Made by a program: the position numbers and the translations under genes
The notes under the pieces: model-generated
Database searches by the model: none
Told to the model about the DNA's origin: nothing
What the model saw: the letters and a program-made list of their open reading frames with translations, nothing else
Assembly: GCF_041260155.1 (NCBI RefSeq)
Contig: NC_091939.1
Span: forward strand, 23,771,744 to 23,835,743
DNA: 64,000 nt
Direction: 5' to 3'
Source: Ptychodera flava
Taxonomy: Eukaryota
Shown here: piece after piece, positions 54,026 to 59,669 of the stretch
How positions within the stretch are numbered: the first letter of the stretch is position 1
Layout of the letters: each line of letters begins with the position of its first letter

Positions 54026-56029
54026 TCTGATAAGGCTGCCTGAATTATTAACATTAGTCATCAACAATGCTATTGTTGTGCTTTGTTCTTTATTGAGAAT
54101 CCGTCTGTACACTTGAACAATGGATTCCACTCCTTCGTCGACACAAGTTTCAATTAGCAACTAAACTAATTTTATGTATAAAGTCAGACCACGCTTAGAA
54201 ATTTTACATTTAGAAATTTTCAAGGGCATTACATCAACTGGATTTGGTGACCTTCGATTTGATATTAAAATAGCAAAATATCCGTGGTAAGTCACCTGAA
54301 AGGTCGTTGCCCTTCGTATATTTTGGCAGTTTCATTTCTCATTATGCTTGTATGCCGTTACTAGCTAATGTATACTTTCTATAGTGAAATGTTCACGTAT
54401 GATCAGCGAAGCTGAATGAAAAAGCTCCTGGACTGCAATGTCACCTTGAAATACAGCGATAAAATTCAAATATTACGGCAAAGTTCAATTGCATCATGCT
54501 TCAGTGGGTGATTCTCAAATTTTAGGTTTGTTCACACGTCCAAACATCTATTTAGGAAGGCATGTCACAGCCAATAGTGTCACACTGCGATTAATTGAAA
54601 TGCTTAGTACAGTCGTTGTGACTGTAAGGTTGTGGCCGAGTGTCAGTGCATACCGTATCCGGGCCAGTTTAGTGATTTACCAGCGTTTTGAAATGGCGTA
54701 TTGACTGACTGACTCCATCGTACAGCCGAAAGTAAGTAAATGAGTTACGTAATGACGCGACGTCACACATCCTACACACAAACGGCCGGGTGCAACTTGA
54801 AGAGACAGTGTCTCAAATTGCCAAAAGCAACAAATTTGGAAAGGCGAACATAAGTTCAACGTCGCGTTCTTTAAATGTTATGAGAACCCGACAGACAGTC
54901 GAAAGAAACTATATATAATTACCATTAGCATGATTGGGAAACATTTAGAGATTCCTGGATTCCAACCAAATGACTTTACTTTATCTACATGCTAATTATA
55001 TAGGAGGGAATTATTTTCCATAATCTAGACAAACTTGATCGGAATCGTACTATGTTTGTATTATAATCTCTACTGGTAAATTAATGAAAAATGTGACGAC
55101 TCTATTTTGTCCCAATGAGTTTTAATTTTCAAGAGAAATTAAATGTAGTTTTATATTCTTTGTTTTTCATGAATACGTTTAAAGCACGAGACTTATTTTC
55201 AGTAAACACGCAATCAGTTCCCTGGTCTCGCTCTATGGCCATAATACGTCTGTGATTATGTCATCATAAACATATATTGCCAATGATTACACAATAATTG
55301 ATAATCTTGCCTTCTATAATGAAAGGCGCAATTGTTTGACCCAATCGATTCTGTTAAAGTATCAGTTCTATTAACCGAACATAAATTGTACGCTAGATAC
55401 ATCCTATGGTCATGAATCTAGCACTGGCTTCCAGTAAACTCACTTTATGACTCGAGGTTACGACAGTATACTTATCGTGATGTCAATAAAGTCTATGTAA
55501 ATTTACAACGAAGATAGTTAGCATGTCTGTACTACCATGGATGTAAATCTATCTATTACATCCATGGTACTACCTAATGTACACCTTCAGGTTAGAACTG
55601 TCTCAGTATGCCTGTCCAGTAGTGGTAGGTAGGGGTGGGTTCTAAATTTTACAGTATTTCTGGTCTTGAAGTCTACTTTGATTGTCAAAAGTCGACTCGC
55701 TTGAATTGTCCCGGTTTTTTTGGCCTTCTAATTTCGTTTAGAATCTACGCCTGCGCGACATTTTGGGCGAGTTGGCATTATCTTTCACAAAGAGCGCCAC
55801 CGCGGCAGGTCTCATAAAATATTGCTGCTGCTTTGAAACTCCAGACACCTGAATAGATCATGTCAGCATTCTGTCTTTCAATCTAGCCCGTCACCTTGAT
55901 TGTTGTGAATTATATTATAGCTTTGTCAACATCAGTTGAATCTGTAACATCACCTTCCTCCCGATTATTACTGATACTGTATTCGGTTATCCAGTATTGT
56001 CGCCATAGATGTTGTACGGTGGCCCAAAA

Positions 56030-56135
56030 CTACCTGTTCTCCGCATTCAAAGTCTGCGTCGCATTCAATTGTTTTTCTCTCACATATGTCTCGGCATTCA
56101 AAGTCTGCGTCGCATTCAATTGTTTCTCTCCTAGA
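56030..56135 (-). repeat. Left-arm copy (about 2 units) of the 51-bp subrepeat, reverse orientation
   Basis: attcaaagtctgcgtcgcattcaattgtttttctctcacatatgtctc is present twice and is the reverse complement of the right-arm unit. Confidence 0.85.
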
Positions 56136-57249
56136 TGGGCGTCGCAGTCAGTGATTTTGTCACCAACACATGAGGGCGCTGGCAAGATTTTGTGAGCGTG
56201 ACCCTTGCTCCATGACCCATGATTGCATCCGGAAAAAGTATCACTCTTTCAGTGTTCGTGATCGCGAAAAGCTCATTGATTTCGAAGGTAAGTGACAAAG
56301 TTATTCATTGTATTGTAAGCTTATAGTGTTAATGATCTAGCCACCGTCTAGCCCTGGATGTATGGCTGCCGTTTTACATTCGGACGCTCATGTGGGACCC
56401 ACTATGATGCGCCCTTACTGGTGAGCAGCGTACCCCTTGGCTAGATCATTAACCCCATAAGCTTACAATACAATAAATTACTTTGTCACTTACCTTCAAA
56501 AATGAGCTTTTCGCGATCACGAACACTAAAAGAGTGATACTTTTTCCCGATGCAATCATGGGTCATGGAGCGAGGGTCACGCTCACCAAAACTTGCCAGC
56601 GCCTTCATGTGTTGGTGACAAAATCATTGACTGCGACGACCATCCACAGGCGGCCCAATCACTATTAATAAAGCTTATTATTGAGTTTTTCTCAGTTTTC
56701 TCTGTCACTATCAGTCCCTCTCCTTTTCTTCATGCCCTGACTGATCGTAGTAAATAAAATAATTGACTATATAGCCTAACCTAGCCTCTTGACTCTTTAT
56801 TTATTTTACACCCTATTACAAGGATGTTTATCTCTCATATACACATCTTGTAATTAATTAGTCAACACAACTAATTATGCTAATCCGTGGACTTATCAAG
56901 GGTTGGTCAACATTGGAAAGATAGAGATGTAAATGAAAAAGGAGTTTTAGTAACCTTTCCTATCTTTCGCGATGTTGACTAACCTGTAAAATCCCTGATA
57001 AGTCCACGGATTAGCATAATTAGTCATGTTGACTAATTAATTACAAGATGTGTGTATATGAGAGATAAACGTCCTTGTAATGGGGTGTAAAATAAATAAA
57101 GAGTCAAGAGGCTAGGTTAGGCTATAAAGTAATTTCCTTTTATTTCCTACGATCAGTCAGAGCGTGAAGAAAGGGAGAAGAACTGATAGAGAAAACTGAG
57201 AAAAACTCAATAATAAGCTTATTAATAGTGTTTGGGCCGCCTGTGGCCC

Positions 57250-57665
57250 ATCTAGGAGAGGAACAATTAACTGCGACGCAGACTTTGAATGCGGACACAT
57301 ATGTGAGAGAGAAACAATTGAATGCGACGCAGACTTTGAATGCGGAGACATATGTGAGAGAAAAACAATTGAATGCGACGCAGACTTTGAATGCGGAGAC
57401 ATATGTGAGAGAAAAACATTTGATTGCGACGCAGACTTTGAATGCGGAGACATATGTGAGAGAAAAACATTTGATTGCGACGCAGACTTTGAATGCGGAG
57501 ACATAAGCTTATGTGAGAGAAAAACATTTGATTGCGACGCAGACTTTGAATGCGTAGACATATGTGAGAGAAAAACAATTGAATGCGACGCAGACTTTGA
57601 ATGCGGAGACATATGTGAGAGAAAAACAATTGAATGCGACGCAGACTTTGAATGCGGAGAACAGG
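57250..57665 (+). repeat. 51-bp tandem array (about 8 units: gcgacgcagactttgaatgcggagacatatgtgagagaaaaacaattgaat) forming the right arm of the foldback element
   Basis: The units are tandem and near-identical, with point variants (caattgaat / catttgatt, and one unit carries an aagctt insertion). The reverse-complement units lie at 56030-56135. Confidence 0.9.
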
Positions 57666-59669
57666 TAGTTTTGGGCCACCGTAATGTTGACTATACATCT
57701 ATAAAACAATAGAATTACTAAAACGATAGCAATAATGTAACTTCCTCCCGGTCCACAATGTACTCAAGCATACTTTGCATTCCACAATGTACTCGGCGTC
57801 TCTTCGTACATTATATCGTGCAAAATTCTCTTTCATTCATCATTATGGGCCGGAGTGGTGCATTTATTGCTTAAATATCCGCTTCCGATATTTGAGGTGG
57901 AGCGACATCAGAGTAATTGTTGCTGGACAGAAATCAGAAATTAAACTGTACCAGAGAGGAGTATACTCGAAGAATTGAACCATCTTTATGTTCATTTTAT
58001 TTATAAGTAGCATTTGTTCCACAAGAAAATATGGCTTTTAAATTACAATGCAAACCTTTCATGCTCTTAGCCGGTGGCCGATACATGTGATAGTCTAAGA
58101 ACAAACCGAGTTATAGCAAAACGTTTTGCTATTAAACTTAAAGGTTCTTCATGAAATTGTTCTCTCTGAACTCACACCAAATGACCTGCGTAATTGGAAA
58201 TTAGAAGCAAGTTTTATCGTTATTCAACGGCATGGGAGTTATATGGGAACAGTTTCAATGTAATTTTAAGATATAAGTAGTGGTACATTATAACTTTTGC
58301 TATAAGTTCAACATATTGGATTGATGAATTTTAAGTACAATTTAATTTGGTATTTGACAAAGAATGACATAAATAGAGCACTTCTACCGTAAATACAAAT
58401 ATGGGTCAATTTGTGACCAAACGATATGAAGAAACAGGAACTTTGTTTACTTCTTTTCCAGTTTCAGTAAAAATTCTTCCTAGTGTCTAATTTATGCGCT
58501 GCGACATCACGAGTTTAATTGATAGTGTAATGCTAGGTTCCTTTTTAATTGATGGTTAGAAACTTTTCAAAACAAAGATATTTTATCCGATGTTAAATCA
58601 TACGATTATTCCAAAACTAAATGAAATCTTAAAGAGTCATATCTATATACAGTGTGCAACACATAATTGATAAACAGGCTTTTCTTCTGCGGCAAAAGTA
58701 ATAGACAGACAGATCCGTCGCTCGGGGCCGCTCACGCTCCCCTAGGGAGCGTAGAGAGCGCCCTCGAGCGACGGATCTTTCAGTCTACAAAAGTAACAGT
58801 GACATATTGCGAAAGCATGAGGTTATATCCTATGTGAATTTGATCGATGTTTTGCAGGGTGAATTTCTCCCTGGGTGATAGAAGTTATAACATGTAAAGA
58901 TCAATATGAAAAGATAGCTCGTCATCAAACTTTGTCAAATAGTTCGCTGTAAAGGGTCATCACACTTCTCTCTTAGCATTAACAAGTCCACTGATTAATC
59001 ACGATGACCAATTCACATGCAGGTCCGGACATTACATTGAGTCGTCCTTGACCTGACCCTGAGCTATTGTTACGGATCACTCTTGGTCAGTAACAATAGC
59101 TGAGCTCCCTTCAAGAAAGATGCGGCATAGTTGACTCCAGAAAATGAAAGCACAACCCCATTGTCAATAAACTGCCGCAGACATAAGTACACATTACCGG
59201 AATTTGGCAATTTTGATCATTAAAATACTCAACAATTATTTGCGACGTTTGTTAGCCCGATGTTCTTTGTCACTATTATACTGTGCAAGTTATAACAGCA
59301 ATTACATTGAACAAAAACATAAGTACGTACTCTGAGGGCGCAGTCTAAAGGCATTTGATTGTGTGATACGGAGATAGACGCTGATGGTATTTCGGAAAGT
59401 TTCTAAAGACTAGATTTTCAACACGACATGCAGATTTGAGCAACAACTTACTCAAATCCGTTAAGTTTAACTTTCAGGTTGTAATCGATCAAGGCAGAAC
59501 ATATACACATACATATAAAGAGTTCTGCATTACTGAATCTACCATAGGGGCTGCTGAAATGGGGCAGGGCAGGGGTAGGTCTCAGCACAGGTTTCTTCTT
59601 GCTATGGTTTATTTTATTTGAATCTTTGACTATGATATGTATTGCTAATAAAAAATTATCTATTCAATC

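What the first reader, a model, noticed from the sequence alone, without database searches (positions are those of the whole stretch)
56009..57689. Foldback-type transposable element with nested hairpins, variable-copy 51-bp subrepeat arms and a 6-bp target-site duplication
The 1669-bp segment is bounded by perfect 22-bp inverted termini, TACGGTGGCCCAAAACTACCTG and its reverse complement. Identical ATGTTG hexamers flank both sides. The arms are tandem 51-bp units, about 2 on the left and about 8 on the right. Inside are two further stem-loops, each flanked by its own inverted pair. There is no ORF. This architecture resembles foldback elements. The precise TSD argues for transposition over a fortuitous palindrome. 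Such structures are recombination- and deletion-prone and often mis-assembled.
Basis: seen in the sequence. Interest (0 to 1): 0.6.

Follow-up and report, generated by a model that had tools for sequence, protein, structure and literature searches.

The report
Foldback-like non-autonomous transposon, acorn worm
This is a 1.7-kb hairpin-shaped, non-coding "jumping gene" copy in the acorn worm Ptychodera flava, whose ends and 6-bp target duplication point to the little-studied IS3EU/GingerRoot transposon superfamily; it is a real but fairly ordinary transposon insertion.

Summary
Window 56015-57683 (1669 bp) has perfect 22-nt inverted termini, which extend to 116 nt at 98%. It is flanked by ATGTTG on both sides. 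It carries 51-bp subrepeats, 2 on the left and about 8 on the right. It folds into a near-complete hairpin (DNA MFE -669 kcal/mol, z = -73 against shuffles). It encodes no credible protein.

The host is Ptychodera flava. The 5'-TA...TA-3' ends plus a 6-bp TSD are the published signature of the IS3EU/GingerRoot superfamily.

I delimited five transposase-bearing IS3EU elements in other public contigs. All five have TATGG...CCATA ends and perfect 6-bp TSDs. Four of the five (three of four families) carry inverted subterminal arrays of 21-26-bp tandem repeats. One of these arrays is asymmetric (6 versus 16 copies). This is the same architecture as the window element.

Best reading: a non-autonomous, foldback-like IS3EU-type DNA transposon, mobilised in trans.

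Not tested: other copies, empty sites and a matching transposase in P. flava. The genome could not be reached with these tools. Hairpin A (56134-56644) is specific to the left arm and its origin is unresolved.

Verdict: a new member of a known kind, of modest interest.

The parts
56009..56014 (.). Left target-site duplication, ATGTTG
   Evidence: Identical hexamer directly outside both termini; it was picked up by an unbiased TA..TA / 6-bp-TSD scan of the whole window.
56015..56036 (+). Left terminal inverted repeat, TACGGTGGCCCAAAACTACCTG (5'-TA end)
   Evidence: Perfect 22/22 reverse complement of 57662-57683; there are no other matches in the window with up to 3 mismatches.
56040..56131 (+). 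Left subterminal array: 2 units of 51 bp, each with two CGCATTCAA motifs
   Evidence: All 15 window copies of CGCATTCAA lie inside the element.
56134..56644 (.). Hairpin A: arm-specific palindrome (arms about 56134-56343 and 56438-56644, loop about 94 nt)
   Evidence: Outer arms of 144 nt are 94% complementary, with a further 64 nt at 92%; see also the fold. It is absent from the right arm and has no direct TSD; the 7 nt GATGGGC recur inverted as GACCATC.
56644..57246 (.). Inner part of the main stem ('hairpin B'): non-repetitive palindrome with its centre near 56945
   Evidence: Arms are 92% identical in a gapped alignment. It is continuous with the outer stem in the MFE structure.
57247..57660 (-). 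Right subterminal array: about 8 units of 51 bp (one is 57 bp; three carry a CAAATG/CAATC variant)
   Evidence: TRF gives period 51, 7.7 copies, 93% matches; unit-by-unit listing.
57662..57683 (-). Right terminal inverted repeat (…CCACCGTA-3')
57684..57689 (.). Right target-site duplication, ATGTTG

Best explanation
The segment 56015-57683 is one insertion of a non-autonomous, foldback-like class II (cut-and-paste) DNA transposon in the Ptychodera flava genome. It most likely belongs to the IS3EU/GingerRoot superfamily.

Shown:
- It encodes nothing credible.
- It ends in 5'-TA...TA-3' with perfect 22-nt TIRs (116 nt at 98%).
- It is flanked by a perfect 6-bp duplication of the target, ATGTTG.
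- It carries inverted subterminal arrays of a 51-bp unit (2 versus about 8 copies), and its interior is almost entirely palindromic.

Inferred:
- An integrase-like DDE transposase (Pfam rva_4), encoded elsewhere in the genome, binds the termini. By analogy with Galileo, it probably also binds the reiterated units; each unit holds two CGCATTCAA motifs, about 20 sites in all.
- The transposase excises the element and inserts it at a 6-bp staggered cut. Repair of that cut makes the TSD.
- The unequal unit numbers arose by slippage or unequal exchange within the arrays.
- The palindromic interior arose by inverted duplication of one half of an ancestor.
- Hairpin A is a later inverted duplication or rearrangement within the left arm.

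There is no evidence of any host function. Confidence is about 0.85 that this is a transposon insertion and about 0.6 that it is of the IS3EU/GingerRoot type; the figure given is for the combined statement.
For: Structure and statistics.

Host: an ORF in the window is 100% identical to an NCBI P. flava otopetrin-family protein.

Literature:
[quoted passage not shown] - De novo insertions of the IS3EU-related Styx element make 6-bp TSDs (PMC10853768).
- Repbase families named IS3EU-1_SK and IS3EU-2_SK exist. Reading _SK as the hemichordate Saccoglossus kowalevskii is my own knowledge of Repbase naming.

Elements I delimited myself around rva_4 genes that are 57-73% identical to the IS3EU-1_SK core:
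- L001:8726-16407, TSD AAGAGA.
- L020:9105-15146, TSD CCCGAT.
- L006:4305-11864, TSD GGATAG.
- L016:8964-10945, TSD GTAATG.
- L017:9221-13479, TSD ATGATC.
All five have TATGG...CCATA ends. Four of the five carry inverted subterminal arrays of 21-26-bp tandem repeats that start 38-120 nt from the ends. In L006 the array is asymmetric, 6.1 versus 15.7 copies. L016 is a 2-kb internally deleted derivative with the same foldback-like build.

Subrepeats as extra transposase-binding sites: Galileo THAP footprints (PMC3688188).
Against: - No second copy of the termini, the unit or the inner sequences was found. There is none in the 64-kb window and none in the JGI metagenomes. The P. flava genome itself could not be searched.
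- No IS3EU transposase was shown in P. flava. None is in the window, and none of the top 120 hits is named P. flava.
- The terminus is TACGG, not TATGG. Only 6 of its first 11 bases match the closest exemplar termini (L001/L020, L006), so Repbase's rule for classing non-autonomous elements is not met against them (positions 1-11, at most 1 mismatch; PMC4455052).
- Superfamily assignment from TSD length and two terminal bases is circumstantial.
- The almost fully palindromic interior and hairpin A have no counterpart in the exemplars.
Confidence: 0.6

Rival explanations
1. It is a foldback-type non-autonomous element of another superfamily (Mutator/MULE like Drosophila FB, Tm1 or Tetris; or P like Galileo). 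This particular insertion happens to have a 6-bp TSD.
For: Most described foldback elements are assigned to Mutator, with Galileo in P (PMC4079207). MuDR/IS256 relatives are reported to make TSDs of 4-10 bp (PMC10045372). The overall architecture is the same.
Against: Tetris has TSDs of 8-10 bp. The TA..TA ends plus exactly 6 bp match IS3EU/GingerRoot. IS3EU elements with the same repeat-laden arms exist.
Confidence: 0.15
2. It is a Tc1/mariner-type MITE whose true TSD is TA (TIR read from CGGTGGCCC...). The ATGTTG pair would then be a pre-existing local duplication or coincidence.
For: TA directly flanks CGGTGG...CCACCG on both sides. Tc1/mariner and IS630 relatives make TA TSDs (PMC10045372).
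Against: This requires an unexplained exact 6-bp direct repeat outside the TA, with a chance of 1/4096. In five transposase-bearing IS3EU elements the TA is likewise inside a 6-bp TSD, so TA belongs to the element.
Confidence: 0.05
3. It is not mobile: either a local palindrome made by replication template switching or inverted duplication, or an assembly artefact of fold-back (chimeric) long reads.
For: It is a single copy in all the sequence I could search. Hairpin A does look like an inverted duplication without a TSD. Palindromes are known to be prone to mis-assembly (general knowledge).
Against: - There is a perfect TSD directly abutting perfect TIRs.
- The arms are unequal (2 versus 8 units), differ by an arm-specific 0.5-kb hairpin, and diverge 2-8%. 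This is unlike a chimeric-read palindrome, which would be symmetric and near-perfect.
- The build matches bona fide IS3EU elements.
Confidence: 0.05
4. Whatever its origin, the locus now serves the host as a hairpin-RNA or small-RNA source, or as a regulatory element near the otopetrin and tRNA genes.
For: The fold is extremely stable. Part of the central hairpin gives a weak, far sub-threshold resemblance to a miRNA precursor model (RF04118, 29.9 bits against a gathering score of 130).
Against: No Rfam family reaches threshold. No conservation or expression data are available. The Rfam hit is what any long hairpin would give.
Confidence: 0.05

Closest known systems
IS3EU/GingerRoot superfamily of DNA transposons (Repbase IS3EU; GingerRoot of Selaginella lepidophylla; Styx of Zymoseptoria)
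   Same: It has 5'-TA...TA-3' termini, a 6-bp TSD and TIRs of about 100 nt or more (PMC10045372, PMC6839031, PMC10853768). The exemplars I delimited (L001, L006, L016, L020) add inverted subterminal tandem-repeat arrays, with unequal numbers in L006.
   Different: It has no rva_4/DDE transposase and no trace of one. The terminus is TACGG rather than the TATGG of all five exemplars. The subrepeat is 51 bp rather than 21-26 bp. The interior is itself a palindrome with an extra arm-specific hairpin.
Drosophila foldback-like elements: FB, Galileo (P superfamily), Tetris (probably Mutator)
   Same: It has long, internally repetitive inverted arms with variable numbers of tandem units. Copies are often non-coding and flanked by TSDs, and the repeats are thought to supply extra transposase-binding sites (PMC4079207, PMC3688188).
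   Different: TSD length is 6 bp here against 8-10 bp for Tetris; Galileo at 7 bp and FB at 9 bp are from my own knowledge. The termini differ, the phylum differs, and a different transposase superfamily is implied.
Sea urchin TU elements and other deuterostome foldback elements
   Same: These are ambulacrarian genomes carrying foldback transposons with long terminal inverted repeats that contain tandem subrepeats. Sea urchin is listed among foldback hosts in PMC4079207; the structural details are from my own knowledge of Liebermann et al. 1983.
   Different: To my knowledge the TU subrepeats and TSD length differ.
Hairpin-type MITEs
   Same: It is short, non-coding, TIR/TSD-bounded, and able to fold into one long hairpin.
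   Different: At 1.7 kb, with tandem-repeat arms, it is larger and more modular than typical MITEs. High copy number, the hallmark of MITEs, is untested.

Membership tests
IS3EU/GingerRoot superfamily | 6-bp target-site duplication | tested here: met
   ATGTTG lies at 56009-56014 and 57684-57689. Criterion from PMC10045372 and PMC6839031.
IS3EU/GingerRoot superfamily | 5'-TA...TA-3' termini with terminal inverted repeats | tested here: met
   The ends read TACGG...CCGTA. The TIR is 22 nt perfect and 116 nt at 98%.
IS3EU/GingerRoot superfamily | Integrase-like DDE transposase (Pfam rva_4), encoded in the element or in a partner element with the same termini | tested here: not met
   No credible ORF or Pfam hit lies in the element. 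tblastn of eight IS3EU/rva_4 cores against the window found nothing significant. A partner elsewhere in P. flava could not be searched for. This is expected for a non-autonomous copy, but membership is therefore unproven.
IS3EU/GingerRoot superfamily | Repbase rule for non-autonomous elements: same TSD length and termini aligning at positions 1-11 with at most 1 mismatch to a classified family (PMC4455052) | tested here: not met
   TACGGTGGCCC was compared with TATGGAAAGCC (L001/L020), TATGGAACGCC (L006), TATGGGGTGTG (L016) and TATGGCGCGCC (L017). It matches 6 of 11 bases to the L001/L020 and L006 termini, and only TAYGG is shared with all five. Repbase itself, including its hemichordate families, was not available.
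IS3EU/GingerRoot superfamily | Superfamily present in the host lineage | tested here: inconclusive
   IS3EU-1_SK and IS3EU-2_SK are in the dataset of PMC10045372, and Repbase lists Saccoglossus kowalevskii families. No P. flava protein was identified among the top 120 homologues.
Foldback-type elements (structural class) | Long inverted arms that make up most of the element, built of tandem subrepeats, often in unequal number | tested here: met
   83% of bases are paired, with 51-bp units in 2 versus about 8 copies.
Foldback-type elements (structural class) | Dispersed multi-copy family with different TSDs at different sites | not testable with these tools
   The P. flava assembly is not in any searchable collection. 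There are no hits in the window or in the metagenomes.
Mutator/P-type foldback elements (FB, Tetris, Galileo) | TSD of 7-10 bp | tested here: not met
   The TSD is exactly 6 bp. The direct repeat cannot be extended on either side. Tetris has 8-10 bp.
Dada superfamily (6-7-bp TSD) | No TIRs; site-specific insertion inside tRNA or snRNA genes | tested here: not met
   The element has long TIRs and is not inside an RNA gene; the nearest tRNA is 2 kb away. Criteria from PMC3706591.
Tc1/mariner MITEs | TA dinucleotide as the whole TSD | tested here: inconclusive
   TA is present at both ends, but an exact 6-bp direct repeat lies outside it. That fits a 6-bp TSD with TA as the element termini, as in the five IS3EU exemplars.
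hAT superfamily | 8-bp TSD and YARNG termini (the motif is from my own knowledge) | tested here: not met
   The 8-mers AGATGTTG and ATGTTGAC are not in register as a duplication. The terminus TACGG has C at the R position.
Polinton / Ginger2 / solo LTR (other makers of 6-bp TSDs) | Termini AG..TC (Polinton) or TG..CA (Ginger2, LTR) | tested here: not met
   The termini are TA..TA. Criteria from PMC6839031.

The most novel reading that the evidence does not exclude
IS3EU/GingerRoot would be a third, independently evolved lineage of foldback-type transposons, after Mutator-like FB and P-like Galileo. In this reading a widespread clade of marine-animal IS3EU elements, marked by TATGG/TAYGG ends, uses long internally repetitive TIRs as multi-site transposase platforms. 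The P. flava element would be its hairpin-only, MITE-like derivative, still young enough to be mobile (perfect TSD and TIRs). I found no open-access paper that links IS3EU with foldback architecture or subterminal repeats.
Probability: 0.3. Interest if true: 0.45.

Novelty: new member of a known kind. Interest (0 to 1): 0.3.

Why it matters
For genome annotation, it adds a curated-quality example of a non-autonomous element in a hemichordate. It also offers a simple signature for the poorly catalogued IS3EU/GingerRoot superfamily: TA(Y)GG ends, a 6-bp TSD and inverted subterminal tandem arrays. In the sample of contigs examined here, that superfamily often has foldback-like arms.

Long hairpins of this kind are hot spots for deletion, inversion and mis-assembly. 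They can also seed satellite arrays or hairpin RNAs, so flagging them helps anyone working on the otopetrin/tRNA neighbourhood or on P. flava assemblies.

It does not open a new biological question by itself.

Tried and rejected
1. Looking for more copies:
- TIR with up to 3 mismatches, and BLASTN of the whole element against the rest of the window: nothing.

2. Reaching P. flava DNA through proteins:
- The otopetrin protein is not on record in the gene-position index.

3. Detecting other arrays through their translated ORFs:
- The 143-aa frame against the 5.8-billion-protein index gave no hit.
- The 151-aa frame against 1.84 billion representatives gave 157 hits. All are 20-38% identical, and the three I inspected (P0003, P0038, P0126) are unrelated tandem-repeat translations. 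Rejected as compositional.

4. Coding capacity:
- Pfam on all ORFs of 40 aa or more in and around the element gave only sub-threshold, repeat-driven hits (MRP_L53, GYF_2, RecD_N), which I rejected.

5. Flank analysis:
- There is no inverted repeat between the two flanks and no similarity of the flanks to the element. It is therefore not nested in a larger palindrome.
- Hairpin A and the inner stem share no sequence.

6. IS3EU partner in P. flava:
- Not demonstrated.

7. Loci where no TIR/TSD could be delimited:
- L002, L004, L005, L018 and L019.
- The L003 candidate (TAATAACAACAA, TSD TTACTG) is kept only as weak.

8. Families considered and rejected on termini or TSD:
- Dada, hAT, Polinton, Ginger2, solo LTR and Tc1/mariner (see the membership rows).

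9. Rfam:
- Only a far sub-threshold hairpin-like miRNA hit lies inside the element.

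
Full report
**What is in the sequence**

Reading 55800-57900 shows TACGGTGGCCCAAAACTACCTG at 56015-56036 and its exact reverse complement at 57662-57683. These are the only two matches in 64 kb even with three mismatches allowed, and none is expected from shuffles. The hexamer ATGTTG abuts both ends, at 56009-56014 and 57684-57689.

The inverted repeat extends to 116 nt at 98%. Inside it lie 51-bp units: two on the left (56040-56131) and an array on the right. 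TRF scores the right array as 7.7 copies at 93% matches (57262-57660). Cutting by motif gives eight units. One is 57 bp because of a palindromic AAGCTT insertion. Three carry a shared variant. The innermost is diverged. Each unit holds two CGCATTCAA motifs, and all 15 exact copies of that 9-mer in the window lie inside the element.

With DNA parameters the 1669 nt fold at -668.9 kcal/mol with 83% of bases paired. Dinucleotide shuffles give -183 +/- 7 (z = -73), and ten other window segments of the same length give -201 +/- 16.

An unbiased scan of the whole window asked for TA..TA ends, a TIR matching at least 12 of 14, and a perfect 6-bp TSD. It returned only this element and one trivial internal palindrome. 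Ten shuffled windows gave 0-1 hits.

**Anatomy, corrected**

The MFE structure and the arm alignments show one main stem:
- the terminus plus two units pair with the outermost right units;
- CTCTCCTAGATGGGC (left) pairs with GCCCATCTAGGAGAG (57247-57262);

The six extra right-hand units bulge out. Only hairpin A (56134-56644) is a separate branch; its outer arms are 94% complementary and its loop is about 94 nt. Hairpin A exists only in the left arm and has no direct repeat around it. Instead, the 7 nt GATGGGC to its left recur inverted (GACCATC) on its right. That looks like an inverted duplication rather than a nested transposon insertion. Its outer 21 nt resemble the 51-bp unit at 16 of 21 positions. 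Its origin is unresolved (note 4).

**Coding capacity**

Because 51 bp is 17 codons, mechanical ORFs of up to 151 aa run through the array in several frames. They and all other ORFs of 40 aa or more give only sub-threshold, repeat-driven Pfam matches.

Searches with their translations found nothing real. The 143-aa frame gave no hit in the 5.8-billion-protein index. The 151-aa frame found only other, unrelated tandem-repeat translations among 1.84 billion representatives. The element is non-coding.

**Host and context**

The 724-aa ORF at 48398-50572 is 100% identical to an NCBI Ptychodera flava otopetrin-family protein on a 44-Mb contig, and 46% identical to a Saccoglossus protein. The window is therefore acorn-worm nuclear DNA: about 40% GC, few long ORFs, and microsatellites.

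The element lies 5.4 kb downstream of that gene and 2 kb from an intron-containing tRNA gene. The flanks are not related to each other or to the element.

**Which kind of transposon**

A 6-bp TSD is uncommon. The literature held here gives the following:
[quoted passage not shown] - The IS3EU-related Styx element has been caught making new insertions with 6-bp TSDs (PMC10853768).
- The other makers of 6-bp TSDs have different ends: Polinton AG..TC; Ginger2 and LTRs TG..CA.
- Dada lacks TIRs and sits inside small-RNA genes (PMC3706591).

The window element ends TA...TA with a 6-bp TSD, so IS3EU/GingerRoot is the only described superfamily whose signature it fits.

**Direct comparison with transposase-bearing relatives**

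From the supplement of PMC10045372 I took the core of IS3EU-1_SK. It matches Pfam rva_4 at 2.4e-48 and finds 1655 homologues. I fetched the DNA around eleven of them and could delimit five elements. All five have perfect 6-bp TSDs and 5'-TATGG...CCATA-3' ends:

| Element | Length | TSD | TIR and subterminal arrays |
|---|---|---|---|
| L001:8726-16407 | 7682 bp | AAGAGA | 744-nt TIRs built from about 24 and about 21 copies of a 21-bp unit |
| L020:9105-15146 | 6042 bp | CCCGAT | Related family in the same sample; 403-nt TIRs at 99%; 13.6 units per side |
| L006:4305-11864 | 7560 bp | GGATAG | Tara metagenome scaffold (L007-L015 are the same locus in other samples); 21-bp units, 6.1 left and 15.7 right |
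| L016:8964-10945 | 1982 bp | GTAATG | Internally deleted; about 14 and about 17 units of 22-26 bp |
| L017:9221-13479 | 4259 bp | ATGATC | No arrays |

For the scans used, the chance expectation per locus is about 0.001-0.004, and the TATGG start was not imposed.

In this clade, then, inverted subterminal tandem arrays starting 38-120 nt from the ends are common (three of four families), and they can be unequal. That is the same build as the P. flava element: a 23-nt unique end followed by 51-bp units, 2 versus 8.

The P. flava terminus (TACGGTGGCCC) shares only TAYGG with all five exemplars, and 6 of its first 11 bases with the closest ones (L001/L020, L006). Repbase's formal 11-nt rule for non-autonomous elements (PMC4455052) is therefore not met against them.

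**Mechanism, and what is shown versus inferred**

Shown: the structure, the TSD, the lack of coding capacity, and the match of signature and architecture to IS3EU elements.

Inferred:
- Mobilisation in trans by an rva_4-type DDE transposase encoded elsewhere in the genome, with a 6-bp staggered target cut.
- The reiterated units act as additional transposase-binding sites, as footprinted for Galileo's THAP domain in its TIR repeats (PMC3688188).
- Array lengths change by slippage or unequal exchange; the block of three variant units in the right array is what local amplification would leave.
- The palindromic interior arose from inverted duplication of one half.

The perfect TSD, the perfect 22-nt termini and the 98% outer arms suggest a fairly recent insertion. 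The 6-8% mismatch of the inner arms was then probably inherited from the source copy.

**Rivals**

- A Mutator- or P-type foldback element (Tetris 8-10-bp TSD) does not fit the 6-bp TSD and TA ends.
- A Tc1/mariner MITE with a TA TSD leaves the outer 6-bp repeat unexplained.
- An immobile palindrome or an assembly artefact does not explain a TSD abutting perfect TIRs. It also does not explain arms that differ by six units, an arm-specific 0.5-kb hairpin and 2-8% divergence.
- A host small-RNA role is not excluded, but nothing supports it; Rfam gives only a far sub-threshold hairpin match.

**What could not be done**

- the P. flava assembly is not in any searchable collection;
- the window holds no second copy;
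- the JGI metagenomes hold none;
- no IS3EU transposase was shown in P. flava.

**Verdict**

This is a genuine, structurally striking but biologically ordinary insertion: a non-autonomous, foldback-like DNA transposon.
- Confidence that it is a transposon insertion: about 0.85.
- Confidence that it is of the IS3EU/GingerRoot type: about 0.6.

It is a new member of a known kind. The mildly novel by-product is that IS3EU elements in several marine-animal contigs have foldback-like, internally repetitive TIRs. I found no paper in the library that links IS3EU with foldback architecture or subterminal repeats.

Noticed in passing
window 53908-54025 (-) and 63526-63643 (-): Two tRNA genes score 46.6 bits each in Rfam. 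Each has a 45-nt insertion after the anticodon loop (loop CUUAUA, which would be tRNA-Ile-UAU with an intron). They lie in 136-nt segments that are 96% identical and 9.6 kb apart. ARAGORN did not call them.
   Followed up: partly
window 55925-57691: The 8-mer ATGTTGAC/GTCAACAT occurs 8 times in the window, and 5 of these lie here: one 84 bp upstream of the element, three near its centre, and one formed by the right TSD plus two bases. The insertion target was ATGTTG(AC). Whether this is chance or a sign of target or self-similarity is unresolved.
   Followed up: partly
window 56316, 56458, 57214, 57504: The palindrome TAAGCTTA (HindIII site) occurs 5 times in the window, 4 of them inside the element. 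One is the 6-bp insertion that makes one right-arm unit 57 bp long.
   Followed up: no
window 23847-23925 and 34550-34628: Two 79-nt segments, 80% identical, both start TTAACCCTTTCAC.... This looks like the TTAA target plus CCC terminus of piggyBac-type elements or MITEs.
   Followed up: no
window 9081-9230, 18800-18950, 42065-42180, 63765-63899: A roughly 150-bp interspersed repeat is present in four copies at 78-79% identity, one of them inverted. It is probably a SINE or MITE family.
   Followed up: no
window 48398-50572 (+) and 31260-31727 (+): There is an intronless 724-aa otopetrin-family gene, identical to an NCBI Ptychodera flava protein. There is also an exon-like ORF with Major Vault Protein repeat domains.
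   Followed up: partly
L001:8726-16407, L020:9105-15146, L006:4305-11864, L016:8964-10945, L017:9221-13479: These are transposase-bearing (rva_4) IS3EU-type elements in ENA and Tara metagenome contigs. All have TATGG...CCATA ends and 6-bp TSDs, and four have long TIRs made of 21-26-bp tandem repeats. I found no paper in the library linking IS3EU with a foldback-like TIR build.
   Followed up: yes
L006:2276: A further TATGGAACG terminus-like sequence lies 2 kb upstream of the complete element, in the same orientation. It may be a solo end of a related copy. It is present in the same place in eight of the ten Tara loci (L006-L013).
   Followed up: no
L018:1587-2824: Next to an rva_4 gene fragment there are weak Pox_A32 and DNA_pol_B_2 hits, as in Polinton/Maverick elements. 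No TIR or TSD could be delimited for the rva_4 gene there.
   Followed up: no
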